A stretch of 64,000 nucleotides of DNA from Patescibacteria group bacterium. GTDB taxonomy: Bacteria > Patescibacteriota > Dojkabacteria > J137. Positions 14,097 through 57,460 of this stretch are shown here, in pieces. The translations under genes and the position numbers were made by a program. Location of the stretch: assembly GCA_016861265.1 (NCBI GenBank), contig BOLA01000001.1:395569-459568 (forward strand), read 5' to 3'. Within the stretch, counting starts at the first letter, position 1. Each line of letters starts with the position of its first letter. The notes under the pieces were generated by a model. It saw nothing but the letters and a program-made list of their open reading frames with translations, searched no databases and had not been told where the DNA came from.

Positions 14097-14162
14097 AAAA
14101 ATTCTTAAGTTATTACTTTATATCACAGCTTATATAATCAATAAAGGAATTAAGAAGGGATT

Positions 14163-14183
14163 GCCTCCGAATTATCGGAGGCG
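14163..14183 (-). terminator. intrinsic terminator of the GC-rich islet-1 gene
   Basis: Hairpin gcctccga-atta-tcggaggc lying 6 nt downstream (minus sense) of the TGA stop of 14189..14548. Confidence 0.55.
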
Positions 14184-14188
14184 TCTCC

Positions 14189-14548
14189 TCACAGCCTAGG
14201 ATTAGATGTTATTTCTGGCTGAGGCGGTACTCTTCGCCTTCTGCGGAAATGCTCCTTTCGATCCCAGAGACCGAATATTGCATGACTAGCCACCGCAATC
14301 AGAAAGCCCCACATTGTGAGATTGCCAATGTTCATGTATATCTCACTTCCGGTTTCGAAGTGTACGATATAGCAACCCCAGCCTCCGCCTGCGAACACCA
14401 GTATCGACAATACGCTTATCAGAACAGAATAGTGATCATCCCGTTCCATAAAGCGGATTACGACTTGTGCTACGAAGATGATAACCGCGACTACGGACAA
14501 CACAGGTGCAATATATGCCGTAGCTTTAATTAGCCAAACTAGCTGCAC
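14189..14548 (-). CDS. small 3-TM membrane protein with Arg-rich C-terminus, encoded in a GC-rich islet; function unknown
   Basis: GTG start 5 nt downstream of a strong SD GGGAGGTG. GC-rich codon usage of about 48% GC against about 33% background. Three hydrophobic helices, then an RRRRRVPPQP tail. Followed by its own hairpin terminator. Confidence 0.6.
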   Translation of the reverse strand: MQLVWLIKATAYIAPVLSVVAVIIFVAQVVIRFMERDDHYSVLISVLSILVFAGGGWGCYIVHFETGSEIYMNIGNLTMWGFLIAVASHAIFGLWDRKEHFRRRRRVPPQPEITSNPRL

Positions 14549-14845
14549 GATACACCTCCCAGGTTTACAATGAGCAGTAGCTAATTATAACATTGGTTGG
14601 CTATTTAAAGCCTCTTACAGAATTAATGCTATAATAAATCCGAATAAAAGCAGAAGTTTGATAATAATTAGCACAAAAACTTCAGTAAAAAGCCTAAGAG
14701 AACTGATTTATATTGAATTGCCGAAGAAATTCAACTATAAAAAATCCCTCAGAATATCTTCTTTTTAACGAATAGTTTGTTAATTACCCTATAACTTGGA
14801 ATTGAATAACTTTTGCAACTAAATTAAAATACATTAAAAATAAAT

Positions 14846-16609
14846 ATGGAAAACTTAGAAACAAAGAAAGAAGTTCCTGCGCAGGAACCAAAATTAAATT
14901 TTGGTGGACTTGAAAAAAGACCTACGCACAAAAGAACAGCACCACAAGGTGATTTAAAAATTATACCGTTGGGCGGAGTTGAAGAAATAGGTATTAACTG
15001 TACCGCATACGAATACAACAACGACATTCTTATAGTTGATTTAGGATTGGGATTTTCTGAATTCGACTATTATGGAATCGACGCAGTTGTTCCGGATATT
15101 AAGTACCTTGTACCTAAAAGAAAAAGAATTAAAGGTATTTTTGTAACTCACGGTCACTTAGACCATATAGGTGCGTTTCCTTATCTAATTGAGGAATTAG
15201 GATTCCCACCAGTGTATGGATCTAAATTCACAATTGAGATGATAAAACAGAGAGTTGATGAGATACCTGGCCTACTACAAAGATTATTGCCTAAACTACA
15301 TGTTGTAGAGGAAAAAGACGTAGTTAAGCTTGGTAGCTTTAAGCTTGAATTCTTTCATGTAAACCACTCAATTCCTCAGTGTCTGGGAGTTTGTATACAA
15401 ACACCAACAGCAAGAGTTGTACAAACAGGAGACTTTAAATTTGACAATACTCCAATTAACGAACCCGTAGCAAACTTTGGAAAAATTGTTGAGTTCGGTA
15501 ATAGAGGCGTAGATGTTCTACTTGCTGACTCTACTAATTCACTTAAGAAAGGATATCCGGTTTCGGAGAGCGACGTCGCAAAAAACTTGGAAGATGCTAT
15601 TGATAGAGCTGAAGGAAGAGTTATTGTTGGTACGTTCTCGGGCTTAGTAGGTAGACTTTACCAACTAATTCAAATTGCAGTAAAGCAAAAAAGGAAAGTG
15701 GCTATTGCCGGCTTTTCTATGAACAAAACTTTAACACTAGCACAAGAAATCGGTTATATAAAAATACCACCTGGATTATTAATTCAGATGAAAGATGTAA
15801 TGAGATACGATCCTTCACAGGTATTAATATTAACAACGGGAGCACAAGGTGAGCCCGATGCCGCGTTAAGTAAAATGTCCTCCGAAGATTATAAAGGTTA
15901 TCAAATACAAAAAGGTGACAAAGTAATTATTTCGGCTAAAACAATTCCAGGTAACGATAGGGCCGTTCAGTTAATGGTAGACAACATTACAAGAAGAGGA
16001 GCTACCGTAGCACAATTGGATGATCTTGATTTATTCACATCAGGACACGGTTACCAGGAAGACCAGAAAATAATGTTGAACTTGGTAAAACCAAAATTCT
16101 TTATGCCAGTTCATGGGTACCAATATTTCTTAAGGGCACACGGCGAAACAGCTGTAAAAGTTGGAGTAAAAAGAGAGAATCTTATTATTGCACAAAGAGG
16201 CTGTGTTATTGAGGGTAATAGATTCAAAGGTTTTAAGATAACAAGAAAGTTTCCTTGTGAACCATTAATAGTATCGGGATCAGGGGTTGGCGATATTGGA
16301 ACAGTTGTTCTAAAAGAAAGAGAACAAATGGCTAACTACGGAATGATTATTATAAGTTTGATGGCCGACAAAGATAGAAAACTTACAAGATCACCATTCG
16401 TATTAACAAGAGGATTTGTATATGTAAAAAAGAATCAGGAATTAATTCAATACATTTCTGATAGTGTAGAAAAAATATACGCGGGTGCTATAAAAGATGG
16501 TTTAGACAATAATGCTATTAAGGATGCACTATCTAACGAAATTGGAAGATTAGTGTTTAAGGAAACAGAAAGAGAGCCAATAATAATGACTATACTAAAT
16601 TACGTCTAA
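14846..16609 (+). CDS. rnj: ribonuclease J (metallo-beta-lactamase/beta-CASP RNase)
   Basis: VTHGHLDHIGAFPYL (the HxHxDH motif) and the beta-CASP region. 587 aa is typical of RNase J. Confidence 0.85.
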   Translation: MENLETKKEVPAQEPKLNFGGLEKRPTHKRTAPQGDLKIIPLGGVEEIGINCTAYEYNNDILIVDLGLGFSEFDYYGIDAVVPDIKYLVPKRKRIKGIFVTHGHLDHIGAFPYLIEELGFPPVYGSKFTIEMIKQRVDEIPGLLQRLLPKLHVVEEKDVVKLGSFKLEFFHVNHSIPQCLGVCIQTPTARVVQTGDFKFDNTPINEPVANFGKIVEFGNRGVDVLLADSTNSLKKGYPVSESDVAKNLEDAIDRAEGRVIVGTFSGLVGRLYQLIQIAVKQKRKVAIAGFSMNKTLTLAQEIGYIKIPPGLLIQMKDVMRYDPSQVLILTTGAQGEPDAALSKMSSEDYKGYQIQKGDKVIISAKTIPGNDRAVQLMVDNITRRGATVAQLDDLDLFTSGHGYQEDQKIMLNLVKPKFFMPVHGYQYFLRAHGETAVKVGVKRENLIIAQRGCVIEGNRFKGFKITRKFPCEPLIVSGSGVGDIGTVVLKEREQMANYGMIIISLMADKDRKLTRSPFVLTRGFVYVKKNQELIQYISDSVEKIYAGAIKDGLDNNAIKDALSNEIGRLVFKETEREPIIMTILNYV

Positions 16610-16956
16610 GGATTTAGTGCACTTTCGAGGTCATTGCTTAGTGTTATGTTCTTAAAGCTTAGCCGGAGTTGAATAATAATTGCTTTTTGTAAATCAATTC
16701 CGGTTATGTGAGGCTGCTGGATTAACGACAGAATATCTCTAAGCAATTTCTCCTTATGAATTTCAAAATCATCAGGATTAGTTTCTACCGAGACTTCACC
16801 CTGCCAAAAGCTAAGAAAAGGATTCGAAGACTTTCTACTGAATATTATTACGAAAGAATTAAGGTAATCGATAAAATCAAAGTATATATCGCCAAAAGGA
16901 GTACTATAGTCGGGAAATGGCATTTCTTTGGGGTAAAGATCAATTCCCCTTCTCAA
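16606..16956 (-). CDS. hypothetical protein
   Basis: 116-aa ORF with no recognisable motif. Overlaps the rnj stop by 4 nt on the opposite strand. Confidence 0.35.
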   Translation of the reverse strand: MRRGIDLYPKEMPFPDYSTPFGDIYFDFIDYLNSFVIIFSRKSSNPFLSFWQGEVSVETNPDDFEIHKEKLLRDILSLIQQPHITGIDLQKAIIIQLRLSFKNITLSNDLESALNP

Positions 16957-16958
16957 GG

Positions 16959-17228
16959 TTAAATTCTAACTCGTGTTTGCAGGTACTTTACCAAATAGTA
17001 GCTTAATGGTGTTAGCACTGCACCTAATAAGAAAGAGTTTATTAACCTGGCAAAAAATGAAGACAAGCCAGAAGTATTTGTTAGATTAATTGGAAATCCG
17101 TATAAGAATGAACCCTTTAGTAATTCAATTGCCAAGAAATTAATCAATGCACTAACAATTACGGCAACTATAAAGGAAAAGATCCATAACTGTTTTGCAA
17201 CCGGATCCATTTGATTAAACATAGTCAT
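16959..17228 (-). CDS. small membrane protein (2-3 TM)
   Basis: 89-aa hydrophobic ORF immediately upstream of 16606..16956. Confidence 0.35.
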   Translation of the reverse strand: MTMFNQMDPVAKQLWIFSFIVAVIVSALINFLAIELLKGSFLYGFPINLTNTSGLSSFFARLINSFLLGAVLTPLSYYLVKYLQTRVRI

Positions 17229-17280
17229 ACTTTTAAAGATATTACTAGTATTTTAAGGAAATTAGCAGCTATTTACAAGC

Positions 17281-18579
17281 TTAAAAAAGAGTTCTGATTT
17301 GACTCCAGGTTTTATCTGCGGTCTTTTCCCAGTCGTACCTTTCTGCCACAGCCCTACCCTTTTTAATAAACTCCTGCTGAAGGTTGTTGTCTCTTAGGTA
17401 TTCAATTATTTCTTTACTTGCCTTCTCTATATTTGCAGAATCAACTAAATACGCACCGCCATCTGTAACTTCTGGCAAACATGAGTAATTGCCAACCACT
17501 GCAGGTACTTGGGCCGCCATTGCCTGTAAAGGACCAAAACTGAATCCTTCGTACTTAGAAAAGTTAAAGTAGCAGTAGGCTTCTTTAATTAAGACCGTTA
17601 GGTCTTCATCACTGACCCTATCAGTAGTTGTTATATTTTCTAGAAGTCCATTTCTTTTTAACTCCTTAAGCACTCTATCGGCCCTTTCATTTTTTGGTTT
17701 AATTTTTGAACCTGTGGCCTTTGTAAAGTCCTTCCCAACCAAAACAAGCTTATTAGGTACATTATCAATATTAGATTCGGTTATTACTTTAAATAGTTTT
17801 ATTAAATCAAAAATACCTTTGTTTTTCTCTAAACCTGAATCGTAAATAAAGTATTTTTTTTCTTCGAGAGAAAATGCCTTCATTACGTGAGTCAACAATT
17901 TGGGATCAGTATCTTCAAAAAATTTTTCATCAACACCTAGATATATCGGGTAGATTTTCTCTTCCTTTACTCTTCCGTGTTTTACCAAATCTTTTTTAGA
18001 GAAATTAGAGTTTGTTAATACTAGGTCAGCATGCCTTATTCCATTGAACATTGAACGGTAGAATATTCCTTTAAGAATATTATGGATAAAACTTTTAGAA
18101 GAATAACTGTTTGTTGCAATTGGAATTGCATCGTGGGCCATTACTACTGTTTTAGGAACAAACGAAAGCTCTCTTTTTAATATCCAGGTAGAAGGTAATC
18201 CTCTTTCAAAGTTTACCGAGAAATATACATCAGGTTTGATTTCTTCAATCGCAGGTTTAAAAGTTAATTTCCATCTTTTAATATTTCCAACACTTGAATC
18301 CACTGCTTCTCCCAATGAATAAAAGCCGATTGTTTTAATATATTGGTCAACACTGAATTGAGACAATCCTAATGCAATGAGATTTTTTTTAAGGTCGTAG
18401 AAACCAACAAAATATACTTCTATGCTGTCTTCCAAAGCTAGTTTAATAATTCTTTTTATGACTTCTTTACCGTACTTACCAATCCCTCTAAATGAATACT
18501 GATCAAAGAGAAATGTAGTGTCGATTAGTAATCTTTTTGTCTCAATCTGTTCACTTTGAGTTTGTGCGTTGTCTTGCAT
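17281..18579 (-). CDS. glycosyltransferase family 4 (GT-B, GT1/GT4 type)
   Basis: C-terminal EGFSFGPLQAMAAQVPAVVG matches the GT4 E-x7-E sugar-nucleotide-binding motif. Confidence 0.7.
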   Translation of the reverse strand: MQDNAQTQSEQIETKRLLIDTTFLFDQYSFRGIGKYGKEVIKRIIKLALEDSIEVYFVGFYDLKKNLIALGLSQFSVDQYIKTIGFYSLGEAVDSSVGNIKRWKLTFKPAIEEIKPDVYFSVNFERGLPSTWILKRELSFVPKTVVMAHDAIPIATNSYSSKSFIHNILKGIFYRSMFNGIRHADLVLTNSNFSKKDLVKHGRVKEEKIYPIYLGVDEKFFEDTDPKLLTHVMKAFSLEEKKYFIYDSGLEKNKGIFDLIKLFKVITESNIDNVPNKLVLVGKDFTKATGSKIKPKNERADRVLKELKRNGLLENITTTDRVSDEDLTVLIKEAYCYFNFSKYEGFSFGPLQAMAAQVPAVVGNYSCLPEVTDGGAYLVDSANIEKASKEIIEYLRDNNLQQEFIKKGRAVAERYDWEKTADKTWSQIRTLF

Positions 18580-18677
18580 AAAATTATTTTAATACTTTAT
18601 TGATAGATTAAGAACAAGATTTTAACTCGAGATTGTAAAATAAACATTAAAAAATTTATTAATGCTAAAATTTATAC

Positions 18678-19628: not shown

Positions 19629-19646
19629 TATTTATAATTAAAAAAT

Positions 19647-20639: not shown

Positions 20640-20642
20640 CTT

Positions 20643-20665
20643 AAAGCGCGGCAAAGCCGCGCTTT
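20643..20665. terminator. bidirectional intrinsic terminator
   Basis: Perfect hairpin aaagcgcggc-aaa-gccgcgcttt between convergent genes. Confidence 0.65.
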
Positions 20666-23550: not shown

Positions 23551-23697
23551 AAATATATATTATCAATTCTTTTAGATATTAACCTAAAAAATTTTATATT
23601 CATAACCTATAGCGTTAATTGAGTAATTTTTTTGAATAATTATGATAGTATTTTTATTAGTCTAGAACTAGACTGTAAATAATATTCATTTTAAATT

Positions 23698-25284: not shown

Positions 25285-25327
25285 CTAAAGAATAATTAAT
25301 ATATCATTTTTAAATTAAAACATTGCA

Positions 25328-26062: not shown

Positions 26063-26066
26063 TAGT

Positions 26067-43278: not shown

Positions 43279-43280
43279 AA

Positions 43281-43304
43281 AATGGAGCCTTTCGACTCCA
43301 TTTT
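43281..43304. terminator. bidirectional intrinsic terminator
   Basis: Hairpin aatggag-cctttcg-actccatt with flanking A and T runs. Confidence 0.55.
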
Positions 43305-43613
43305 TCAAAATATATCAAAAATTTCTCCTAAAATAGATTCCTTCTTTTTATGTTTATAGTGCCCTCCGTTATTGTTTCTGTAGTCATCATCCCGTTTGTC
43401 AAACTTTGGGGAATTATCATAGTTGCTAAATGAAGGCGCATTAGTATTTGAGTACTTTTGCTTTGCCTTATCTTCAACAATCTCAACTAATTTTTCTAAT
43501 TCACCTTTATCTAGCCAAACGCCACCCGATTCAGGACAATATTCAATTTCTATTCCTCCATACGGTAATACCATCTTACGCATCTCAATTTCCGAATTTA
43601 CTGGACTTCGCAT
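43305..43613 (-). CDS. small protein with degenerate zf-TFIIB-like half-motif (CPESGGVWLDKGELEKL)
   Basis: A C-P-x-x-G-G-x-W-L-D-x-G-E-L-x-K motif occurs in TFIIB-type Zn-finger proteins. Only one Cys pair is present. Confidence 0.4.
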   Translation of the reverse strand: MRSPVNSEIEMRKMVLPYGGIEIEYCPESGGVWLDKGELEKLVEIVEDKAKQKYSNTNAPSFSNYDNSPKFDKRDDDYRNNNGGHYKHKKKESILGEIFDIF

Positions 43614-44580: not shown

Positions 44581-44581
44581 T

Positions 44582-45898: not shown

Positions 45899-45930
45899 AT
45901 TTTCAATTTTAACATTTAATAATTAAGTAA

Positions 45931-46002
45931 TAAAAAACCCTCCTTTTCATGGAGGGTTCTAATTTATATAGATATAGAAAAGCACCCTCTTTAAAGAGAG
46001 TG
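45931..46002 (-). promoter_or_regulatory. hisS 5' leader with tandem hairpins: upstream stem (cacucucuuu/aaagagggug) and terminator-like stem-loop (aacccucc-augaaaa-ggaggguu + U run) about 35 nt before the hisS AUG; candidate attenuator
   Basis: Read in the hisS sense, an 8-bp GC hairpin followed by UUUUUUAUU sits just upstream of the start. The 3' arm of the upstream hairpin (agagggug) can pair with the terminator 5' arm (acccuc). Confidence 0.4.
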
Positions 46003-46109
46003 AATATGGTTTATCAATGTATTTACGAATAATCTTTTCACATGCATATTATAGCACTATATTAGAGTTTTCTGGTAAAATCCTGAACTGGTAACTAAGG
46101 AGGTAACTT

Positions 46110-46331
46110 ATGAGATTAATGCTTGTTCAACGAAAAGTGGGTGATCCGACTTTGGAACAGATAGAGCGTAACCCACAAGGTCATGTCGAGCCTGTCGCTA
46201 TTATCGTCGTTAATACCGAACTTACCGATGCCGAGATGAACGAGTTAGGACAATCTGTCCTTGCAATTATTGGCGATAAGCCAGTAAATACCGAGGAACT
46301 AAGAGATTTTTACTCAATGTTCATGGGTTAG
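46110..46331 (+). CDS. small hypothetical protein (73 aa) in GC-elevated islet 3
   Basis: Strong SD AAGGAGGT 7 nt upstream of the ATG. GC-rich codons of about 45% GC. Followed by a perfect hairpin terminator. Confidence 0.5.
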   Translation: MRLMLVQRKVGDPTLEQIERNPQGHVEPVAIIVVNTELTDAEMNELGQSVLAIIGDKPVNTEELRDFYSMFMG

Positions 46332-46336
46332 TCTCG

Positions 46337-46362
46337 GCAGGGCGGAGTTTACTCCGCCCTGC
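46337..46362. terminator. intrinsic terminator, perfect 12-bp GC-rich stem
   Basis: gcagggcggagt-tt-actccgccctgc, which lies between the small ORF on the plus strand and the convergent rsmB-like gene on the minus strand. Confidence 0.65.
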
Positions 46363-46369
46363 ACTAAAC

Positions 46370-47317: not shown

Positions 47318-47480
47318 AAAGTATTTATCTATAAAATGATTATCGCTTAAAGTATTAATCTATTCAATAAACATAAAGATTGAAAGTGTTGATAGTCAAC
47401 TATAATAAAGAGACTAGATATTGACATTCATAAGAATTTATTACACACTATATATGTAATAATTTTTTATTTACAAAAAT

Positions 47481-47654: not shown

Positions 47655-47680
47655 TTTCTTAGAAGTTTTTTTTAACGCTA

Positions 47681-47708
47681 AAAAAATCCCTGCTCGCAGG
47701 GATTTTTT
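47681..47708. terminator. bidirectional intrinsic terminator
   Basis: aaaaaa-atccctg-ctcg-cagggat-tttttt hairpin with an A run and a T run. Confidence 0.65.
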
Positions 47709-47729
47709 ATTACTAATATTTTTAGACGC

Positions 47730-49028
47730 CTATTTTTTGTCTAAACTAAAGTTTAAACTTTGTTTCTTAAACACACCTACTAACCACTTGTGACTTCTCT
47801 GCTCATGATCAATCTTGACAACACTTAATCCTGCAGCCTTTGCTCTTGCCTCTAATTCTTCCACACTAAATAAGTGATAGAATCTTTCCATTTCTGAATA
47901 TTTCTTTTTTTCCTTTTCGTATATTTCACCTTGACCTTCCCTTACAATTACATACAAGACTCCATTTTCAACTAACGAATCACTTATCTTCTTAAACACA
48001 TCTGGTAAATGCTCTTCGGGAATATGATGCAACATATCTCTAGACCAAATTCCTTTATATTTATTCTTTGGCAAATCATAACTAATAATATCTGCGTTTA
48101 TTATTTCAGCATTTGGGTTTTCAAAGCTTGCCATATCAGCAAACTTTTTAACAATTTCTAATCCCGTAACTGAATATTTTTCTGAAAGGACTTTAGTGTC
48201 CGATCCCGGACCGCAGCCCAAATCTAGAACTTGTGCAGGCGGATTTACCAAGGAAATAAACTCATCGAGTTGATCTTGAGCAACATTTTTACCAACATTC
48301 GCTGAATGATATTCAGCCGCAACTTTCTTATAAGTTTCTAATGTTACCTTTACCTTCGGATTAATTACAAATCCAGACTCATCACCTACTCTTGGCTTAA
48401 GGTCTAATTTCTGATACATTTCTTCGAATGATTGTACAAGAGCAAGAACCTGTTCAGGTGTTGTTGCTCTTTTTAGAACTGCCATTTCTACTTCATCAAT
48501 ATACATGGCCTTTTGAAATGATAATATTAAATCATCCCAAAAATCTCCATATAAAATGACAGGTTTATGACTTCCATAATACAATTTTGCTAAGCACCAA
48601 ACCATCCCAAATTCTGAAACCGTTCCGGTTCCACCCTTGCAAACTACAAAAACATCACCCTTTTCTATTAATCCCAATGTTCTCATTACATAATTTGAAT
48701 ATGTTTCGGCTTCATCTGTTAAATTAGCTGTGTTTTTACCTTCAAAGTGAGACGCCAATTTAGGTTCCCAATAAATGGCAATTGTTCTTCCATCTGCTTC
48801 CTGTGCCCCACTTGTTGCAGCTTGCATTATACCGGGACCGCCTCCATCAACAATTGTAAAACCATTTGTTGCCAATAGTTTTGCAGTTGCCTTTACATTT
48901 TCATAAATTGGATCACCTTCTGGTATAGCTGAATCTCCAAAGAAAGTAACATTATTTATTAGCCTACCCTGGTTTTTATTAAGTTCATTATCCGAACCTC
49001 CGTCTTTTTTTAATTCAATATCGAGCAT
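47730..49028 (-). CDS. fusion protein: N-terminal LOG-family (TIGR00730 Rossmann, lysine-decarboxylase-like) domain + C-terminal class I SAM-dependent methyltransferase
   Basis: The N-terminal half carries GGGPGIMQAATSGA...VVCKGGTGTVSEFGMVW, the LOG family signature. The C-terminal half carries VLDLGCGPGSDT (SAM motif I) and a downstream methyltransferase fold. Confidence 0.65.
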   Translation of the reverse strand: MLDIELKKDGGSDNELNKNQGRLINNVTFFGDSAIPEGDPIYENVKATAKLLATNGFTIVDGGGPGIMQAATSGAQEADGRTIAIYWEPKLASHFEGKNTANLTDEAETYSNYVMRTLGLIEKGDVFVVCKGGTGTVSEFGMVWCLAKLYYGSHKPVILYGDFWDDLILSFQKAMYIDEVEMAVLKRATTPEQVLALVQSFEEMYQKLDLKPRVGDESGFVINPKVKVTLETYKKVAAEYHSANVGKNVAQDQLDEFISLVNPPAQVLDLGCGPGSDTKVLSEKYSVTGLEIVKKFADMASFENPNAEIINADIISYDLPKNKYKGIWSRDMLHHIPEEHLPDVFKKISDSLVENGVLYVIVREGQGEIYEKEKKKYSEMERFYHLFSVEELEARAKAAGLSVVKIDHEQRSHKWLVGVFKKQSLNFSLDKK

Positions 49029-49037
49029 ATAAGATTT

Positions 49038-49682: not shown

Positions 49683-49748
49683 ATTAAGAGTATAAAAAAA
49701 GTCCTAAAGATAGTTTACTTTAGGACTTTAAATTTTTACAAATTATTA

Positions 49749-50465: not shown

Positions 50466-50600
50466 ATGAGAATGATTAAATAAGTACGTAACAAATAATA
50501 CATTAAAAATATTCCTCAGACTAGTTATTTACAGGAAATACATTAACAATTTTATTTGTTAACGGTCTATAAATAATTACCTTATCTTTATACACAAGCA

Positions 50601-52325
50601 TTAAGTCACTGTTGCATATAAATACTTTCCCTCAACTTTAACTGCAATTGGTTTTTCCCCTGCTCCTAGGCTAATAGTACCTGCTGCAGATGGGCTATTC
50701 ACATCAGAAATATTTTCAATTTCAATTGACATTGGAGATTCAGAAGCTATATAAGCATAATTACCTTTAACGTCTAACCCCCTTGGATAACCTGTTAAAG
50801 TATAGGTTGTTATAACTGAAGGGCTGGCTGGATTCGATGTATCTACGATTGACAATGTTTTATCGGTCAGACTAGTGACAAAGGCATATTTCCCTTGCAC
50901 ATCAACTCCCCATGCTGTACTTGTGCCTACGGCTACAGATCCCGCAACACTAGCAATACCTGTAGCAGAAATAATATTTTTAATATTTCCTACTACATCT
51001 AACTTTGCGCTCGGCGTACTTGTACCTATACCTACATTCGCATTAACAAAATTAACTTCATCAGTTGATTGATCATCAAATTCAATTCTCCCTGCAGCAG
51101 AACCTAACCCAATCCATTTATCATCCACCACCGTAAGGTTACTATTAGTAGTAAGGGTAGTTGCACTACTTCTATATAAAGTTGCATCCCCTCCCAATAA
51201 TAAACCTCCATTTGAACCAGTTACCGACAATTGCAATTGTCCCGCGTTTGTTAATACACCTCTAGATGAACCTGCAACTTGAAATTCAAATAAATTCGGA
51301 GTACCGGTTCCATTTTCATTTACTATTAGCAACGGATTTGTTGCAGCTGTCGCTGTACTTATTAAATTAATTAAACTATTTGTACTGGTGGTTGTTTGGG
51401 CTGCAGCTGGTGCAAAACTCACACAGGTAGAACAAGACCCTGCAAGCAAATCAATTGTTGAAGATGCCGATCTAAAATTTAAGCTTGTTCCATTCCACCA
51501 CAAGTCTCCACTGTTTGGAGAAGATGGATTGGTACCTCCACTACTAACTAGTCGCAATGAAGATTGAGCCGTTGTGGCTACTGCAACGTTTAAAAACGCG
51601 GTGTTCGTTGTTGTTCCAGCTAATACGTTGCCATCGAATCTATTTATGCCTGCATCACTCCAAATTGCATAAGTATCTGCACCTTCTACATAAAGACCAT
51701 AATCGTTTGTTCCACCAGTTGTGTTCGCCAGGAAAATGCCGTAATTATCACCTATCGTGCCGCCGCCAGAATTAATACTTGATACGTGTATTCCATAGGC
51801 AGTAGTAACCGTTGCTGTACTTAGCTGTTGAATTGCAAACCTTCCTCCATAGGCAGTTGTTATTGTTCCAGCTGATTGAAATTGAATATATCCATCAACT
51901 GCCCGGGCTTGATTTACGGTGTTTCCAGTACCGGGATTAATTTGCAGATTACTTAATACACCGCCTGTAACTCCGGTCATATTTCCTGTCTGAGTTATCT
52001 TACCCAATAAGGCTTGGTAGCCAGTACCACCACTATAAGTCCTCTCCGTTCTAAAACCTATAGTATCAGATGCCGCTGTATCTCCAACCGCAATCGATCC
52101 GCTATTTTTAAGAGTAAATTTATTAACCCCACCTACTTGAATATTTATTAAATCAGGAGAACCACTGCCGTTTTCGTTTACTAATATTAAAGGGTTAGTT
52201 GCACTTGTAGCAGTTGACTCAAGATTAATGAGGCTGCTCGTGCTTGTTGTAGTTTGAGTTGCACTTGGCGCTAACTGTACAAAACCAGTAGCTCCAATTC
52301 TGTGCAACGAATGCACTCGGAACAC
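50601..52325 (-). CDS. repeat-rich surface protein fragment (tail-fibre-like GIGT motif, internal duplication, C-terminal LVIVD-like repeats); probably the 3' part of a frameshifted gene
   Basis: It contains NANVGIGTSTPSAKLDVVGN. It has duplicated segments of about 55 aa (ATQTTTSTSSLINL... and AAQTTTSTNSLINL...). The C-terminus has KYAFVTSL..LSIVDTSNPASP and NYAYIASE..., which look like LVIVD repeats. The last repeat is cut short. Confidence 0.5.
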   Translation of the reverse strand: MFRVHSLHRIGATGFVQLAPSATQTTTSTSSLINLESTATSATNPLILVNENGSGSPDLINIQVGGVNKFTLKNSGSIAVGDTAASDTIGFRTERTYSGGTGYQALLGKITQTGNMTGVTGGVLSNLQINPGTGNTVNQARAVDGYIQFQSAGTITTAYGGRFAIQQLSTATVTTAYGIHVSSINSGGGTIGDNYGIFLANTTGGTNDYGLYVEGADTYAIWSDAGINRFDGNVLAGTTTNTAFLNVAVATTAQSSLRLVSSGGTNPSSPNSGDLWWNGTSLNFRSASSTIDLLAGSCSTCVSFAPAAAQTTTSTNSLINLISTATAATNPLLIVNENGTGTPNLFEFQVAGSSRGVLTNAGQLQLSVTGSNGGLLLGGDATLYRSSATTLTTNSNLTVVDDKWIGLGSAAGRIEFDDQSTDEVNFVNANVGIGTSTPSAKLDVVGNIKNIISATGIASVAGSVAVGTSTAWGVDVQGKYAFVTSLTDKTLSIVDTSNPASPSVITTYTLTGYPRGLDVKGNYAYIASESPMSIEIENISDVNSPSAAGTISLGAGEKPIAVKVEGKYLYATVT

Positions 52326-52884
52326 TCTTCAATCCTGTCCTAGTGAATAATTCAGAAAAACTACCTAGGGATCCGCTCGTATCGGATGGTGCAAAACCAA
52401 CTTCAATATATAAATCTGCCCTATCAAAATTAACACCAGGGTTCGAGTCACTGTCACTATCATCAACTACGGTACAAGTTCCTACTGTGGTACCCCATTG
52501 ACTATTACCAGATACAGTACTTCCACAACTATTTATTACTAAATTAAAAGTACCATTAGTGTCTCCAATCTCAACGTCTTGAAATGTTTGTGTAAACATT
52601 AAATTCCCAGAACCGGGTGTAGTGCTTGTGTTGGTAGCATGGTTCCATATTCTTATTTGAAAGTCGCAAGTATCGGCACCAGACTTAACGCAAGCCGGTG
52701 TTCCGTTTGTAATATTAAGACCGGTAACTTTATCAACAATTTTACTTTGAAAATTTATTGTATTATTTATAGCAGCTTTGACAGAATTTAACGACGAGGA
52801 AAAACCAACTAGACACAAGAACAAGAACCCAAATAGGAGGGCTAAAAATATGTTTTTTATATATAGGCTATAAATATGTCTCAA
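52225..52884 (-). CDS. N-terminal part (signal peptide) of the same disrupted surface protein gene
   Basis: Signal peptide/TM at the N-terminus. It overlaps the next ORF by 100 nt in another frame, so the two are probably one gene with a frameshift. Confidence 0.45.
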   Translation of the reverse strand: MRHIYSLYIKNIFLALLFGFLFLCLVGFSSSLNSVKAAINNTINFQSKIVDKVTGLNITNGTPACVKSGADTCDFQIRIWNHATNTSTTPGSGNLMFTQTFQDVEIGDTNGTFNLVINSCGSTVSGNSQWGTTVGTCTVVDDSDSDSNPGVNFDRADLYIEVGFAPSDTSGSLGSFSELFTRTGLKSVPSAFVAQNWSYWFCTVSAKCNSNYNKHEQPH

Positions 52885-53066
52885 ACTCGTAAAGGTACTA
52901 TCTATTCAACATATCATACTATCATAAAGAAATATCCCTCTCAAACGTCCTAAGTCTTTACTCATAATAAAAATCACTATGCTTACGGTAGTTTTACAAG
53001 ATATAAAAATTTAACCAATAAATTTTCTAAAAGTAAGAATTAAACAGTATAATTAGCCAGAATTTT

Positions 53067-54131: not shown

Positions 54132-54188
54132 CTGTTATTCAATTCTCAAGATTGGTACTTATGTTTATAATTAGTCGTTAATATATTA

Positions 54189-55064
54189 ATGACTAGTATG
54201 GCAATTACGAAAGCTATTATTACAGCAGCAGGTTACGGTACAAGGTTCTTACCGGCAACAAAGAATGTACCCAAAGAATTACTTCCAGTAATTAATACTC
54301 CAACAATTCACTATATTGTTCAGGATTGTATAAAAGCAGGAATCAAAGATATTATTATTGTTACTCGATTCGGAAATCATTCTGTAGAAGATTATTTCGA
54401 TACAACACCGGCTTTAGAAAGTTATTTAGAATCCAAAGGTAAGGTAAAGGAAGCTGAAGCAATTCATGAAATTTATTCCTCAGCCAATTTTATTTTTATT
54501 AGACAAGACCCTGATTTACCTTATGGAAATGCATCTCCGCTTTATTCTGCAAAGAGTTTAATACAGAAAGACGAATCGTTTATTTACGCATGGGGTGACG
54601 ACATAATACTGGGTGAAAATGCTGGGATTCAGGAAATTATTGAAGACTATAAAAATGAGTATGCCGATGTAATTCTAAACTGTACAAAGGTAGGTGAGGA
54701 TCAAATTACCAAACTTGGAATTGTTAAATTCAAGAACAATGAATCCACACAAATTGAACAAATAATTGAGAAACCTACTTTAGAGCAGGCACCAAGCGAT
54801 ATAGCATCGGTCTCGCCTTATTTATTTAACGCAAAAATTTTTGATTACCTAGATCCACTAACAGTTGAACCGGGAAAAGAATTTATGATTCAAAATGCAA
54901 TCGATGCTCTTTGTAAAGACGGCATTGTAAAAGCAAATGTAACAAAGGGAACATGGCTAACCACAGGCGATCCTTTAAACTATTTAAAAGCAACAGTAGA
55001 GATTGCTCTAAGCAGAGACGATCTTAGAGATGAGTTTATAAATTACTTAAAGACTAAAATTTAA
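54189..55064 (+). CDS. galU: UTP--glucose-1-phosphate uridylyltransferase
   Basis: N-terminus KAIITAAGYGTRFLPATKNVPKELLPVINTPTIHYIVQD matches the GalU signature. Confidence 0.8.
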   Translation: MTSMAITKAIITAAGYGTRFLPATKNVPKELLPVINTPTIHYIVQDCIKAGIKDIIIVTRFGNHSVEDYFDTTPALESYLESKGKVKEAEAIHEIYSSANFIFIRQDPDLPYGNASPLYSAKSLIQKDESFIYAWGDDIILGENAGIQEIIEDYKNEYADVILNCTKVGEDQITKLGIVKFKNNESTQIEQIIEKPTLEQAPSDIASVSPYLFNAKIFDYLDPLTVEPGKEFMIQNAIDALCKDGIVKANVTKGTWLTTGDPLNYLKATVEIALSRDDLRDEFINYLKTKI

Positions 55065-55070
55065 GTTGAT

Positions 55071-55097
55071 AAAGCGAAGCGCATAGCGCTTCGCTTT
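55071..55097. terminator. bidirectional intrinsic terminator
   Basis: Perfect hairpin aaagcgaagcgc-ata-gcgcttcgcttt between convergent genes. Confidence 0.7.
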
Positions 55098-56172
55098 ACA
55101 GAGCTTCATTAAAACCCTTATCCTTTATTTCATCTAAAATCTTTTTTATATCTCCCGTTCTATCTTTTGAACAAACCAATAAAGCGTCGGGAGTATCTAC
55201 AATAACAATATTATCGAGTCCGATTGCTGCTATAACCTTCTCGTTAGAACCTTTTAGTAGTGCATTTGAAGTATCTATATTTATTATTTTTCCATCCTTG
55301 TATACTTCACCTGGATTTACAAAATAACTATATAACGAATCCCATGTTCCAACATCAGTCCAATTAAATGGAGTAAGAATAATATAACCCTCTGCGAAAA
55401 CATGTTTCGTGACATCTTCTGTAGGTCCTTCCTGCATTTCGGAATAAATCTTATCTGTTAACTCTTTTTCGTTGTCTTTCCCAAAGGTTTCTTTAATTTT
55501 CATTAGTGATTCATACCAATCAGGCTTATATTTTTTATATGCATCCAACATTAAATCTGGATACCAACAATTATGGTTACAGTGAGTCGATACATTAAAC
55601 TTTTGTATTAGATCTTTTGTTTTAGAATAATCACCTAATCTATAAACAAATTCATCAACAGCGTAAATATCTAACCCATCGTCAGTTTCTAGTTTTTTAC
55701 CTAACTTAAGATAGTCACTCCCCATGTCTGGATTAATAGCTTTCTGACCTGCAGAAATAAACTTTCTATCTCTTTTTACAAGCATTTCAGCAGATTTAAT
55801 CATCTCTATAAATTTATCTTCAGGAGATCTTATACAGTCTGATTGAATTATCATGAAAGGCTCATCGGGATGGATTACAGAAAGTTTTAGAATTGCATAG
55901 CCTTCCCCAGGTCCTCTATTCTTCTTATACGGAGGTTCAATAATAATATTTCCCTTGGGAATTTCAGGAGAATCTTTTAATACTAATTCTAAATAAATCT
56001 CTTTAGTAGATATAAAAATATCTTCCGGTCTATAGGCTTTTAACAAAGTATCTATTTGGTAACGGAATAAAGTTTTTTCTCCTACAATATTTTGGAATTG
56101 TTTAGGTCTAGCTTCGCGGCTCATTGGCCAAAGTTTTGTTCCTTGACCCCCAGCAGTAATAATAAATTTCAT
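55096..56172 (-). CDS. mannose-1-phosphate guanylyltransferase-like nucleotidyltransferase
   Basis: N-terminus MKFIITAGGQGTKLWPMSREARPKQF matches ManC/CpsB-type enzymes (ILAGG.GTRLWPLSR..PKQF). Confidence 0.7.
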   Translation of the reverse strand: MKFIITAGGQGTKLWPMSREARPKQFQNIVGEKTLFRYQIDTLLKAYRPEDIFISTKEIYLELVLKDSPEIPKGNIIIEPPYKKNRGPGEGYAILKLSVIHPDEPFMIIQSDCIRSPEDKFIEMIKSAEMLVKRDRKFISAGQKAINPDMGSDYLKLGKKLETDDGLDIYAVDEFVYRLGDYSKTKDLIQKFNVSTHCNHNCWYPDLMLDAYKKYKPDWYESLMKIKETFGKDNEKELTDKIYSEMQEGPTEDVTKHVFAEGYIILTPFNWTDVGTWDSLYSYFVNPGEVYKDGKIINIDTSNALLKGSNEKVIAAIGLDNIVIVDTPDALLVCSKDRTGDIKKILDEIKDKGFNEAL

Positions 56173-56275
56173 CTTCTGACTGTAAGAAGTAGTGAAATTA
56201 TTATATCAGAAGAAATTTTTTGAATTAAAACTGTAAAGGTAGCAGCTAACAACAATTGTTTGTTATTAATTGCTA

Positions 56276-56298
56276 CCTTCGGAAAGCCGATCCGAAGG
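56276..56298 (-). terminator. GC-rich hairpin terminator of islet-2 gene A
   Basis: ccttcgga-aagccga-tccgaagg, 17 nt downstream (minus sense) of the stop at 56315. Confidence 0.5.
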
Positions 56299-56314
56299 TG
56301 CCGTTCACGAAGAA

Positions 56315-56785
56315 CTAGCGCTGGGTAAAGATCACGCTGTGGTGGTCGCCGATCCCTGCGGTTGCCACAATGGGCAAACCGTTAAAGGTGGCAAACACGC
56401 CGTAGGCTTTACCCTTAAGAACCATTTGATCACCAACAAACCATCCGACACGCTGGAAGGTTGACCCTCCCGCAGCTGCGGTTGTGTATGTTCCGAATTC
56501 GCTTCCGCGAACCGAGTAGTTTTGTCCGTCAATGGTAACCCAGCCAGCATTAGCTAACTGGTTTGCGACCATTGCGGTTCCAAATCCTTTGGAACCGCAA
56601 TGAATCCCGGCGACCATCAGAACAATTATGAATACAAGGTAGACCATTCCATCGTGCCGTCCGGCAAACTTTCCCAGAATCAGAACGAGAATAGTACCAA
56701 TTCCCAATGTCGCCGCCACTGCAGCATACTCCAGACCGAGAAACATGAATGCTCCCGCTGTGAGTGCTGCAACCAGAACGAACAA
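56315..56785 (-). CDS. membrane-anchored hypothetical protein (156 aa in ORF-track frame) in GC-rich islet 2; start ambiguous / possible frameshift
   Basis: GC-rich codons of about 50% GC. Two N-terminal TM helices, then a Gly/Ala/Thr-rich domain. The track start is TTG. An SD-led ATG (AGGAG-N8-ATG at 56817) opens a 45-aa ORF in a neighbouring frame that overlaps this gene's start. Confidence 0.5.
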   Translation of the reverse strand: MFVLVAALTAGAFMFLGLEYAAVAATLGIGTILVLILGKFAGRHDGMVYLVFIIVLMVAGIHCGSKGFGTAMVANQLANAGWVTIDGQNYSVRGSEFGTYTTAAAGGSTFQRVGWFVGDQMVLKGKAYGVFATFNGLPIVATAGIGDHHSVIFTQR

Positions 56786-56855
56786 AACGCAACGAATCTC
56801 TTACCTGTGCTGCTCATTGCCTGTACTCCTGTGATCAATTAATCCTAGATCGTAT

Positions 56856-56903
56856 GTTACCGATCTTTCTGAGAACCAACTGATTCGCAAGAAGATCGGT
56901 AAC
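56856..56903. promoter_or_regulatory. perfect 12-bp inverted repeat (gttaccgatctt / aagatcggtaac, 24-nt spacer) upstream of islet-2 gene A; candidate operator
   Basis: Exact reverse-complement arms. A third CGGTAAC copy lies at 56993-56999. Confidence 0.4.
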
Positions 56904-57028
56904 AAGCTTTCCGAAGTTTTAAAGAACCTTAGCTTTATTAAGCATAAGATATATATAGTATATACCTATAATATATTTCTGTCAACCATTGTCGGTAACA
57001 CTAGGTAAATTTAATAAGAAATTTAATA

Positions 57029-57052
57029 CCCCGGTACTCTGATTTCCCGGGG
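57029..57052 (-). terminator. hairpin terminator of the 31-aa peptide gene
   Basis: In the minus sense, gccccggg-aaatcagagta-ccggggt followed by a U-rich tract, 12 nt after the TAG stop. Confidence 0.5.
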
Positions 57053-57063
57053 CATTGCTTGTA

Positions 57064-57159
57064 CTACTGATGAATGACCTGTTCAGCATTCCGCTTCAGC
57101 AGAATGTACGCGAGACCAAACAAAACCAACCCTACTACTACCACTTGCCACAGCGGCAT
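57064..57159 (-). CDS. 31-aa single-TM hydrophobic peptide (MPLWQVVVVGLVLFGLAYILLKRNAEQVIHQ); not in ORF track
   Basis: ATG preceded by the SD GGAGGTG with a 6-nt spacing. GC-rich codons. Followed by its own terminator. Its composition resembles small membrane regulatory peptides and type I toxins. Confidence 0.45.
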   Translation of the reverse strand: MPLWQVVVVGLVLFGLAYILLKRNAEQVIHQ

Positions 57160-57460
57160 AGCACACCTCCAATAAATATTTACGGGCAACGAGTTATATA
57201 ACAACAATATATTTTATACAATTTACTTGGCCATCTAACATGCTATAATTTTTATATGAATAGATACAGAATGTTAAATATAACTATCTTCTGGGCCTAA
57301 GCCCTCTACTTTCATACCTAATCTTAGAAAAACAACTACCTTAACTACGGCTTTATAGCTTAGTTTTAATATATCAAAAGGTTCTAATAACAAGAATCTG
57401 CTTTTGAAAATCATAATCCGGCGATTAAGTTGTTATAATCTATATAATTATTATAAAAAT

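What the first reader, a model, noticed from the sequence alone, without database searches (positions are those of the whole stretch)
14160..57180. Recurrent architecture: three compositionally foreign mini-cassettes (strong GGAGG SD + GC-rich codons + GC-clamped hairpin) scattered among SD-less housekeeping genes
Taken together, islets 1-3 look like independent insertions of one kind of element.

Each carries one or two small genes, mostly membrane proteins or peptides. Each has a canonical strong SD and its own GC-rich terminator hairpin. Two of the hairpin stems share a tccga/tcgga core. I saw no flanking direct repeats or terminal inverted repeats, and no recombinase gene.

The host genes here initiate without an SD. 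That makes the islets either very recent horizontal acquisitions, or, if the islet-encoded genes are retained, a dedicated class of highly expressed small-protein genes. The donor would be a higher-GC organism, possibly the host bacterium of an episymbiont or a phage.

Either way the pattern is systematic and, to my knowledge, not a described element type.
Basis: inference. Interest (0 to 1): 0.7.

Follow-up and report, generated by a model that had tools for sequence, protein, structure and literature searches.

The report
Old GC-rich orphan genes, not insertions
Four small, GC-rich genes with classic ribosome-binding sites really do stand out in this AT-rich genome that otherwise lacks such sites, but they are old, fixed, lineage-specific accessory genes rather than copies of a new mobile element.

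Summary
In a 33.5% GC window, 56 native genes have GC3 of 0.27 ± 0.03 and no Shine-Dalgarno (SD) site. Four genes in three intergenic islets have GC3 of 0.41-0.59 and conserved SDs.

The interpretation mostly fails. The islets share no sequence, ends or recombinase. Each sits at one syntenic locus in at least ten independent assemblies, including relatives with saturated synonymous divergence (dS ≥ 1.4). They encode proteins under purifying selection (ω 0.10-0.14), with homologues only in this clade. So they are neither recent nor chimeric.

They are dispensable and recombine:
- Islet 2 is missing in two relatives.
- The "31-aa peptide" is a 270-bp deletion remnant of a 124-aa protein.
- A 2-kb block spanning islet 3 is ~100% identical to a genome that is otherwise ~72-75% identical.

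Best reading: these are ancient orphan accessory genes of probably foreign origin. Each is a self-contained unit with a sigma-70-like promoter, an SD, an ORF and a hairpin without a U-tract. Whether the GC richness is slow decay or selection is unresolved.

New side finding: the hypervariable islet-3a gene has a conserved structured leader that is complementary to its own 3' hairpin.

The parts
14583..14591 (-). I1 promoter-like extended -10 (TGTTATAAT)
   Evidence: Read from the sequence. The region is conserved in L005. It is predicted only; the consensus scan did not list it because no good -35 element is present.
14553..14560 (-). I1 Shine-Dalgarno site GGGAGGTG, 4 nt before the GTG start
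   Evidence: Duplex energy -14.0 kcal/mol. It is conserved as GGGAGGG in L005, which is 78% nt identical overall.
14189..14548 (-). I1 ORF: 119-aa protein with three predicted TM helices and an Arg-rich C-terminal tail
   Evidence: GC3 is 0.475. Against L005, ω = 0.10 and dS = 1.5, with substitutions at codon positions 28/14/51. Homologues occur only in close relatives. No Pfam, PHROG, NCBIfam or PADLOC family matched.
14163..14182 (-). I1 3' hairpin GCCTCCGA-ATTA-TCGGAGGC, with no U-tract
   Evidence: Fold energy about -20 kcal/mol with flanking bases. The terminator scan did not call it.
46035..46063 (+). I2 promoter-like site (TTTTCA-17-TATATT)
   Evidence: The upstream TTATAGCA region is conserved in L012. 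Predicted only.
46097..46104 (+). I2 Shine-Dalgarno site AAGGAGGT
   Evidence: Duplex energy -13.4 kcal/mol. L012 has AGAGGAGGT.
46110..46331 (+). I2 ORF: 73-aa acidic soluble protein
   Evidence: GC3 is 0.405. The only database homologue is a 99% identical sequence. A diverged orthologue is present in L012. The gene is absent in L009 and L019. The single-sequence structure model has pLDDT 59 and is not usable.
46337..46362 (+). I2 3' hairpin, shared with the convergent RsmB-like gene
   Evidence: 12-bp perfect arms. Fold energy -19.9 kcal/mol.
56236..56299 (-). 3a 3' end: two tandem hairpins, T1 (56275-56299) and T2 (56236-56279)
   Evidence: Both hairpins are conserved across alleles, with compensatory changes, in L003, L012, L017 and L020; L019 keeps T1 only.
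56315..56816 (-). 3a gene: helical membrane N-terminus plus an 8-stranded beta domain. It is 166-167 aa in relatives. In the window a T-run indel near 56786-56800 leaves the ATG out of frame and a 156-aa TTG ORF (56315-56785).
   Evidence: GC3 is 0.52. Against L003, ω = 0.14. The family comprises P0001/2/6/7/8 plus the L019 and L020 proteins. The AlphaFold2 model has pLDDT 79. There is a weak lipocalin-like beta-barrel match, 5cyb, E = 0.027.
56826..56830 (-). 3a Shine-Dalgarno site AGGAG
   Evidence: An SD (AGGAG, AAGGAGG, GGAG or AAAGGAAG) is kept in all seven diverged alleles.
56817..56950 (-). 3a structured 5' leader: P1 hairpin, invariant TTCTTTAAAACTTCGGAAA (56908-56926), and long P2 hairpin (56855-56904)
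   Evidence: 15 of 29 predicted pairs show double-sided compensatory changes. The motif occurs only upstream of 3a homologues. It is complementary to the T1 loop and 3' arm: an 11-nt perfect inverted repeat at 56277-56287 / 56906-56916.
56957..56985 (-). 3a promoter TTGACA-N17-TATACT
   Evidence: 11 of 12 consensus matches. It is present (nearly unchanged) in six of the seven diverged alleles; in L019 the -35 is TTGTAA.
57030..57053 (-). 3b 3' hairpin CCCCGG...CCGGGG
   Evidence: Fold energy -16.4 kcal/mol. It is present in L003.
57064..57159 (-). 3b remnant: a 31-aa ORF, the N-terminal TM anchor of a 124-aa protein. A 270-bp in-frame deletion between CAGTA repeats has removed the rest.
   Evidence: L003 has the full gene. 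L017 has a 126-aa orthologue at 34% identity. Window and L009/L010 are ~96-100% identical across this stretch with no alignment gaps, so the deletion allele appears to be shared.
57164..57170 (-). 3b Shine-Dalgarno site GGAGGTG
   Evidence: Duplex energy -13.1 kcal/mol. It is conserved in L003 and appears as CGGAGGT in L017.

Best explanation
The islets are four separate, self-contained, single-gene transcription units encoding lineage-restricted orphan proteins.
- I1 encodes a 119-aa protein with three predicted TM helices.
- I2 encodes a 73-aa soluble protein.
- 3a encodes a membrane-anchored small beta-barrel protein.
- 3b encodes a single-pass anchored beta-rich protein.

Each unit has its own sigma-70-like promoter, a short or structured leader, a functional Shine-Dalgarno site, a GC-rich ORF and a stable 3' stem-loop without a U-tract.

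They entered the common ancestor of this small-genome, AT-rich clade before its present species diverged. I infer the clade to be CPR/Patescibacteria-like. The origin was probably foreign and GC-richer; this step is also inferred.

Since then they have been inherited vertically at fixed loci. They have been kept as dispensable accessory genes under purifying selection, lost or damaged in some strains, and swapped between lineages by ordinary homologous recombination through the conserved flanks.

Translation depends on SD pairing because these GC-rich mRNAs lack the native A/T-rich start context. This dependence is inferred from SD conservation, not shown.

They are not a family of mobile elements.
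For: **Real and not chimeric**
- The same junctions occur in independent assemblies from at least ten sequencing runs.
- The window's native proteins are on record from an NCBI contig of 1,114,243 bp.

**Fixed synteny and age**
- I1 lies between RNase J and the AA-kinase gene in L005/L006. Backbone identity there is about 78%, and the islet is 74-81% identical, like its flanks.
- I1 dS is 1.5, against 1.4-2.9 for the flanks.
- The 3a family lies between TrpRS and the NTP-transferase gene in L003, L009, L012, L017, L019 and L020. Flank dS is 1.4-1.8.

**Protein-coding under selection**
- ω is 0.10 for I1 and 0.14 for 3a, with substitutions concentrated at third codon positions.

**SD kept in every orthologue although native genes have none**
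-.

**Orphan status**
- Word-based searches returned only 1-2 close hits per protein.
- The exhaustive HMMER search found only clade members.
- Nothing was found in Pfam, PHROGs, NCBIfam, PADLOC, PDB sequences (I2 and 3b only), INPHARED phages (all four proteins), or IMG/VR (3a and I1 families only).

**Dispensable**
- I2 is absent in L009 and L019.
- 3b carries a deletion and 3a a frameshift in the window.

**Exchange by homologous recombination**
- A ~2-kb block at window 56170-58200 (islet 3 plus about 800 nt of trpS) is ~100% identical to L009/L010, whose backbone is about 72-75% identical.
- L003 differs by about 10% only across 56200-57070, within otherwise identical flanks.

**Hint of ongoing GC loss**
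- Polarised changes in I1 are 13 GC>AT against 4 AT>GC. In the adjacent native gene they are 8 against 15 (Fisher p = 0.012).
Against: - No donor or foreign homologue was found, so the foreign origin is inference from composition alone.
- GC3 stays at 0.40-0.59 in every lineage despite saturated synonymous divergence of the flanks. Simple neutral amelioration from any realistic donor should have gone further.
- G/C bases at 4-fold sites are identical between the window and L005 in 11 of 22 I1 sites, against 4 of 53 in native genes (p = 1e-4). This points to synonymous constraint or a younger coalescence, not plain decay.
- The 13:4 polarisation is biased by a GC-richer, saturated outgroup.
- Promoters, transcription start sites and terminator function are predictions only.
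- The organism's 16S 3' end (the anti-SD sequence) could not be inspected.
Confidence: 0.55

Rival explanations
1. The islets form a selected expression class. They are native genes whatever their origin, and their GC-rich codons and SD are actively maintained. They would form a small set of SD-dependent mRNAs in an organism whose bulk translation is SD-independent. Translation might then occur only by a sub-population or state of ribosomes with an accessible anti-SD, as with rpsU in Bacteroidia.
For: - SD and high GC3 persist in all orthologues across dS ≥ 1.4, even in 3a alleles that are only 27-33% identical.
- G/C 4-fold sites are more conserved than in native genes.
- GC enrichment is confined to the ORFs, while promoters and leaders have native AT composition.
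- 3a has an elaborate conserved leader.
- There is a precedent: Bacteroidia ribosomes are SD-blind, and the SD-bearing rpsU is regulated through anti-SD availability (PMC9976891, PMC7797042, PMC13000453).
- Some CPR lineages lack the anti-SD motif (PMC9297842).
Against: - The genes are dispensable and decaying in some strains.
- No shared regulatory motif links the four genes.
- There is a hint of net GC loss.
- No expression data are available.
- The sample is only four genes in 64 kb.
Confidence: 0.3
2. One reading: recent, independent insertions of one kind of small mobile cassette from a GC-richer donor such as the host bacterium or a phage.
For: - Composition is atypical, and each unit has its own expression signals.
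- I2 shows presence/absence polymorphism.
- Islet 3 alleles move between lineages.
Against: - Loci are fixed and syntenic, and the islets co-diverge with their flanks.
- The islets share no sequence or ends.
- No recombinase gene lies nearby.
- The islet 3 transfer tract includes 800 nt of native trpS, so it is homologous recombination rather than element mobility.
- No donor or phage homologue was found.
Confidence: 0.04
3. The GC-rich islands are structured non-coding RNA genes or assembly chimeras, and the ORFs are chance products of GC-rich sequence.
For: - GC-rich islands in AT-rich genomes are often RNA genes.
- GC-rich DNA gives ORFs on both strands.
Against: - There is no Rfam hit, even at permissive thresholds, and no tRNA or tmRNA.
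- The substitution pattern is codon-periodic with ω of 0.10-0.14.
- Full-length protein homology holds at 27-30% identity.
- Junctions are identical in many independent assemblies.
Confidence: 0.02

Closest known systems
Phage 'morons' (PMC3594210)
   Same: Each is a single gene carried as an independent transcription unit with its own promoter and stem-loop. Its base composition differs from its neighbours. The genes are dispensable and often encode membrane or surface proteins.
   Different: The islets lie among housekeeping genes, not in a prophage. There are no phage homologues. They are fixed at syntenic loci for dS > 1.4 rather than recently added.
Horizontally acquired genomic islets / ORFan accessory genes undergoing amelioration (established concept; my own knowledge)
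   Same: GC3 is atypical, taxonomic distribution is narrow, presence/absence varies, and protein evolution is fast.
   Different: No donor is detectable. The atypical composition and the SD survive saturated synonymous divergence. The sites are conserved rather than variable.
SD-bearing rpsU in SD-blind Bacteroidia (PMC9976891, PMC7797042, PMC13000453)
   Same: A very few genes carry a strong SD in a genome whose other genes lack one.
   Different: Here the genes are orphan membrane or small proteins, not bS21. The organism is not a Bacteroidia. Anti-SD status and any regulation are untested.
Hypervariable surface-protein loci exchanged by homologous recombination through conserved flanks, for example capsule or O-antigen type switching (my own knowledge)
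   Same: The 3a/3b locus holds alleles of 27-33% identity between conserved housekeeping flanks, and it shows inter-lineage recombination tracts.
   Different: It is a single small gene, not a biosynthetic cluster. The promoter, leader and 3' hairpins are conserved while the ORF diverges.

Membership tests
Mobile element (IS / MITE / integron cassette) | Terminal inverted repeats or an attC-like site, plus target-site duplication at the element ends | tested here: not met
   The inverted-repeat scan of all three islets found no repeats that consistently mark the islet ends; direct repeats were not scanned for. The only notable inverted repeat (11 nt, 56277-56287 / 56906-56916) lies inside the 3a transcription unit, between the leader and the 3' hairpin.
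Mobile element (IS / MITE / integron cassette) | Several related copies, or a shared backbone between copies | tested here: not met
   The 3a leader motif occurs once in the window. 3a and 3b are not detectably related. The four proteins fall in no common family.
Mobile element (IS / MITE / integron cassette) | Variable genomic location between related genomes; a recombinase nearby | tested here: not met
   The loci are the same in all relatives. No integrase or transposase appears in the gene maps.
Phage moron | Autonomous promoter-gene-terminator unit with composition unlike its neighbours | tested here: inconclusive
   Composition is clearly different. 3a has an 11/12 sigma-70 consensus promoter. 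The other promoters are weak consensus matches, and the hairpins lack U-tracts. There are no transcript data.
Phage moron | Located in a phage or prophage genome | tested here: not met
   The neighbours are RNase J, an AA-kinase family gene, HisRS, RsmB, TrpRS and an NTP transferase. There are no significant PHROG hits and no phage matches.
Recent horizontal acquisition | Absent from sister lineages, or less diverged than the flanks | tested here: not met
   I1 divergence equals that of its flanks. 3a, 3b and I2 orthologues are present in relatives with flank dS of 1.4-1.8. The I2 absences in L009 and L019 are best read as losses.
Recent horizontal acquisition | Identifiable homologues in a donor lineage | tested here: not met
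   Searches returned only members of the same clade.
Type I toxin (for the 31-aa hydrophobic ORF) | A stand-alone small hydrophobic toxin gene, conserved as such | tested here: not met
   The ORF is the N-terminal remnant of a 124-aa protein after a 270-bp deletion.
Bacteroidia-type SD-regulated gene (rpsU paradigm) | Ribosomes with a sequestered anti-SD; the SD-bearing gene responds to anti-SD availability | not testable with these tools
   No 16S rRNA or bS21 gene lies in the window or the fetched loci. The collection scans were exhausted. Only the SD-less native context and the SD conservation in the islets are shown.
Known RNA families (Rfam 15) | Covariance-model match at or near the gathering score | tested here: not met
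   Searches gave no match. The best E-values were 0.3-4.5, to unrelated eukaryotic miRNA/lncRNA models and one far-below-threshold bacterial sRNA model.
Lipocalin-like beta-barrel lipoproteins (SP_0198 / 5cyb type), for the 3a C-terminal domain | Eight-stranded up-and-down beta-barrel fold | tested here: inconclusive

The most novel reading that the evidence does not exclude
This SD-independent, small-genome bacterium keeps a small, selectively maintained set of GC-rich, SD-dependent orphan genes as a separate translational class. Such a class might be read only by ribosomes with an accessible anti-SD. One member, 3a, would be controlled by a previously undescribed structured leader whose invariant 19-nt segment pairs with the gene's own 3' hairpin, giving 5'-3' UTR communication. 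This would sit at a hypervariable surface-protein locus.
Probability: 0.2. Interest if true: 0.75.

Novelty: new variant of a known kind. Interest (0 to 1): 0.5.

Why it matters
Composition-based calls of 'recent HGT' can be badly wrong. Here foreign-looking genes have sat at the same loci through saturated synonymous divergence.

If the GC richness and the SD are selected rather than relict, this would be a second natural example, after Bacteroidia rpsU, of a few SD-led genes with a special role in an SD-independent translation system. It would be the first in the small-genome candidate phyla, where some lineages are reported to lack the anti-SD (PMC9297842).

The 3a locus also offers two leads for studying how these uncultured bacteria vary their surface:
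- a compact candidate cis-regulatory RNA;
- a fast-evolving, recombining, membrane-anchored beta-barrel protein.

These genes are easily missed by gene callers. I1 was left uncalled in 3 of the 6 contigs of the window's own lineage (L001, L002, L011, L013-L015).

Tried and rejected
- **Known families.** Pfam, PHROGs, NCBIfam and PADLOC gave nothing significant for the islet proteins. PDB sequence searches for I2 and 3b likewise gave nothing.
- **GTDB genomes.** No locus encodes a 3a relative. The Sua5/TsaE flank returned only one distant MAG, so the organism could not be named.
- **Other collections.** IMG/VR and JGI scans with the 3a family and the I1 alignment were empty. INPHARED tblastn for all four proteins was empty.
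- **Leader motif in IMG/VR.** One 19-nt hit in a giant-virus MAG contig has no promoter or hairpin context. I read it as a chance match.
- **5'-3' UTR pairing test.** RNAduplex own-versus-cross energies were not discriminating (-31.0 versus -28.4 kcal/mol). The claim of allele-specific complementarity therefore rests on reading the helices.
- **Rejected ideas.**
  - GC-biased gene conversion was rejected as the cause, because recombination tracts also cover AT-rich native genes.
  - An invertible (phase-variable) 3a segment was considered because of the flanking inverted repeat. All 11 assemblies have the same orientation, so there is no support.
  - The LVIVD gene at 50601-52325 was considered as a fourth islet. 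It is native: GC3 is 0.24 and the GC comes from second codon positions.
- **Literature.** A search for the SRA run numbers found nothing.

Full report
**What is there**

The window is 33.5% GC. It has no tRNA genes and no Rfam matches.

Three stretches exceed 47% GC in 200-nt windows, or carry a GGAGG-led ORF in a long intergenic gap:
- **I1**, 14163-14591, minus strand.
- **I2**, 46035-46362, plus strand.
- **I3**, 56236-57201, minus strand, holding two genes, 3a and 3b.

A gene-by-gene table shows the contrast.
- 56 native genes have GC3 of 0.273 ± 0.028 (maximum 0.333) and essentially no SD-antiSD pairing.
- The four islet ORFs have GC3 of 0.475, 0.405, 0.522 and 0.594, which is z = 4.7-11.5.
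- Three of them have SD duplexes of -13 to -14 kcal/mol.
- Gene 3a has AGGAG 8 nt upstream of an ATG.

A scan of every ORF of at least 25 aa finds strong-SD starts outside native genes only in the islets. The only GC-enriched long intergenic gaps are these three. The census for this window is therefore complete, and the association is far beyond chance (Fisher p = 1e-4 to 1e-5).

The ribosomal-protein genes L17, L13 and S9 of a near-identical relative have GC3 of 0.14-0.20 and no SD. The islets therefore do not resemble native highly expressed genes.

**Corrections to the description**

1. In the window, the 3a ATG that carries the SD is out of frame with the long ORF. The window has a T4 run where L009 has T5. 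Relatives encode an intact 166-167 aa protein beginning MS(S)TGK. This may be a real frameshift or a homopolymer error in a long-read assembly.
2. The 31-aa 'peptide' is the N-terminal membrane anchor of a 124-aa protein. A 270-bp in-frame deletion between CAGTA repeats has removed the rest. The deletion allele appears to be shared with L009 and L010.
3. The I2 protein is a 73-aa acidic soluble protein.
4. GC-clamped hairpins are not diagnostic of the islets. Native transcription units end in equally strong hairpins (-13 to -18 kcal/mol). The native ones are flanked by A-runs and T-runs, as in classic bidirectional intrinsic terminators. The four islet hairpins (-16 to -20 kcal/mol) lack a U-tract.
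5. GC enrichment is confined to the ORFs and hairpins. The promoter and leader DNA of each islet is 29-33% GC, like the host.

**Not an artefact**

- The I1 protein is encoded with identical junctions in independent assemblies (L001, L002, L011, L013-L015).
- I2 and I3 recur in L003, L004 and L008-L010.
- The window's native proteins are on record from an NCBI contig of 1,114,243 bp. The source therefore appears to be a single ~1.1-Mb contig (probably a near-complete small genome).
- The gene caller behind the collection skipped I1 in three of these contigs although the DNA is identical.

**Not recent and not mobile**

I1 lies between the RNase J and AA-kinase genes in L005 and L006. These are about 78% identical to the window overall, and the islet is as diverged (74-81%) as its flanks. 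Against L005:
- I1 has dS = 1.5, dN = 0.15 and ω = 0.10, with codon-periodic substitutions (28/14/51).
- The flanks have dS of 1.4-2.9.

An exhaustive HMMER search with the 3a protein against 1.84 billion representatives found only four small relatives at 27-30% identity and one weak repeat match. Two of these, P0006 and P0008, lie at exactly the same place between trpS and the NTP-transferase gene. JGI relatives L019 and L020 carry further diverged members at the same place (hhalign probability 92%).

An I2 orthologue sits next to the RsmB-like gene in L012. A 3b orthologue at 34% identity sits in L017.

In every case the orthologue keeps high GC3 (0.40-0.59) and an SD. The surrounding genes remain at GC3 of 0.15-0.30 without an SD.

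The islets share no sequence with one another. They have no consistent terminal repeats, and no recombinase lies nearby (gene maps). 'One kind of element, independently inserted' and 'very recent acquisition' are therefore rejected.

**Dispensable and recombining**

- I2 is missing in L009 and L019. There, about 50-100 nt separate the RsmB stop from the conserved downstream hairpins. L012, a relative of L009, has the islet.
- Islet 3 shows striking mosaicism.
  - L003 is identical to the window on both sides but differs by about 10% across 56200-57070. 3a dS is 0.32, against 0.005 for the adjacent gene.
  - L009 and L010 have a backbone about 72-75% identical to the window. They share a ~2-kb block (56170-58200) at ~100% identity.
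  - That block includes about 800 nt of native trpS. The mechanism is therefore homologous recombination through conserved flanks, not element mobility.
- Similar mosaic blocks occur around I1.

**The proteins**

None of the four proteins matches any family in Pfam, PHROGs, NCBIfam or PADLOC; I2 and 3b also have no PDB sequence match, and all four have no INPHARED phage match.
- **I1** has three predicted TM helices and an Arg-rich tail.
- **3a** models with pLDDT 79 as three or four helices followed by an eight-stranded beta domain. The best structural matches are weak and lipocalin-like: the small beta-barrel lipoprotein 5cyb/3ge2 (E = 0.027) and potempin.
- **3a evolution** is very fast. 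dN is about 0.68 between L009 and L012, while the flanks have dN of 0.02-0.05. Alleles of 27-33% identity occur in genomes whose NTP transferase is 95-99% identical.

A membrane-anchored, fast-evolving, recombining small beta-barrel fits a surface or interaction role. That is inference.

**Why GC-rich and SD-led?**

SD conservation across saturated divergence, in a genome where native genes have none, argues that the SD is functional. It also implies that the ribosome has a usable anti-SD. This could not be checked, because no 16S gene is within reach.

Native genes instead show a TTTAAA-like motif centred about 13 nt upstream of the ATG.

Two readings of the composition remain.

*Relict of a GC-rich foreign origin, still decaying.* Polarised changes in I1 are 13 GC>AT against 4 AT>GC. 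The neighbouring native gene shows 8 against 15 (p = 0.012). The outgroup is GC-richer and saturated, so this is only a hint.

*Active maintenance.*
- GC3 is about 0.5 in all lineages despite saturation.
- G/C bases at 4-fold sites are identical between the window and L005 at 11 of 22 I1 sites, against 4 of 53 native sites (p = 1e-4).
- A younger coalescence of the islet alleles through recombination would also explain the second point.

I favour ancient foreign origin with slow and perhaps constrained decay (confidence 0.55) over a purpose-built translational class (0.3). The two are not exclusive.

The literature gives context. Some Parcubacteria lack the anti-SD motif (PMC9297842). Bacteroidia ribosomes are SD-blind, and there the strong SD of rpsU is used for autoregulation (PMC9976891, PMC7797042, PMC13000453). 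Architecturally the closest described thing is the phage 'moron' (PMC3594210), but the phage context is absent here.

**Side finding: the 3a leader**

All seven distinct 3a alleles share the following:
- a TTGACA-N17-TATACT promoter (11 of 12 matches in the window; the -35 is TTGTAA in L019);
- a ~110-150 nt leader containing a P1 hairpin;
- an invariant single-stranded TTCTTTAAAACTTCGGAAA;
- a long P2 hairpin, followed by the SD.

RNAalifold finds 29 pairs, of which 15 show double-sided compensatory changes.

The invariant segment is the reverse complement of the loop and 3' arm of the first post-ORF hairpin. In the window this is an 11-nt perfect inverted repeat. The complementarity extends in an allele-specific way:
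- 16 bp with one bulge in L003;
- 14 bp in L019;
- 12 bp in L012 and L020;
- including a G-C to A-U switch in L019 and L020.

The motif occurs only upstream of 3a homologues and matches no Rfam family. This suggests 5'-3' UTR pairing or competition with terminator formation. A simple duplex-energy test was not discriminating, so it remains a lead.

**Verdict**

The thing is a new variant of a known kind: compositionally atypical orphan accessory genes. It is unusual for the long-term retention of foreign-looking composition and SD dependence in an SD-less small genome. It also comes with an undescribed leader RNA at a hypervariable locus.

Noticed in passing
window 56817-56985 (-) and 56275-56299 (-); also L003, L012, L016, L017, L019, L020: The 3a gene has a conserved TTGACA-N17-TATACT promoter and a structured leader. 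The leader has P1 and P2 hairpins with compensatory changes and an invariant 19-nt TTCTTTAAAACTTCGGAAA. That segment is complementary to the gene's own first 3' hairpin, and the complementarity extends in an allele-specific way. It matches no Rfam family. It is a candidate new cis-regulatory RNA or 5'-3' UTR interaction.
   Followed up: partly
upstream regions of 49 native genes across the window: Native start codons lack an SD. Instead they show a TTTAAA-like motif centred about 13 nt upstream (TTAA starts at -13 in 12 of 49 genes and at -14 in 5 of 49) and a frequent T at -1. This could be an alternative initiation signal or a -10-like element of very short leaders.
   Followed up: partly
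window 56170-58200 versus L009/L010: A ~2-kb block is ~100% identical to a genome whose backbone is about 72-75% identical. It covers islet 3 and the first ~800 nt of trpS, and indicates recent inter-species homologous recombination. Smaller mosaic blocks are seen against L003 and L011.
   Followed up: partly
window 57064-57070 and 56786-56816: 3b carries a 270-bp in-frame deletion between CAGTA repeats. 3a has a one-base T-run difference that shifts the SD-led ATG out of frame. This is either gene decay or, for the T-run, a possible homopolymer sequencing error.
   Followed up: yes
L009 16627-16700 and L019 about 12171-12290, versus window 46014-46369: Islet 2 is entirely absent in two relatives, although the flanking RsmB-like gene and the downstream hairpins are conserved. 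It is a clean presence/absence polymorphism.
   Followed up: yes
window 50601-52884: The LVIVD-repeat protein genes raise local GC to 0.40-0.45, but through second codon positions (GC2 0.45-0.53). GC3 is 0.24-0.31. They are native genes, not a fourth islet.
   Followed up: yes
window, for example 4660-4700, 20640-20665, 43280-43305, 45936-45958, 47700-47730: Native transcription units end in GC-stem hairpins flanked by A-runs and T-runs, as in bidirectional intrinsic terminators. The islet hairpins lack the U-tract.
   Followed up: partly
window 14713-14736 (between I1 and the RNase J start): A small conserved hairpin, TTGAATT-TCTTCGGC-AATTCAA, lies in the divergent intergenic region upstream of the RNase J gene. 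It is also present in L005 with a compensatory-looking change. It might belong to an RNase J leader.
   Followed up: no
L020 9064-11200: About 2 kb has no long ORF, only 60-64 aa ORFs, two of them with GC3 of 0.40-0.48. In the window the corresponding position holds the LVIVD genes. It could be a decayed gene or another GC-richer insert.
   Followed up: no
L013, L014, L015 (I1 region): The gene caller used for the public collection did not call the I1 ORF in three contigs whose DNA is identical to the window. The ORF has a GTG start and atypical composition. Such genes are probably under-annotated.
   Followed up: yes
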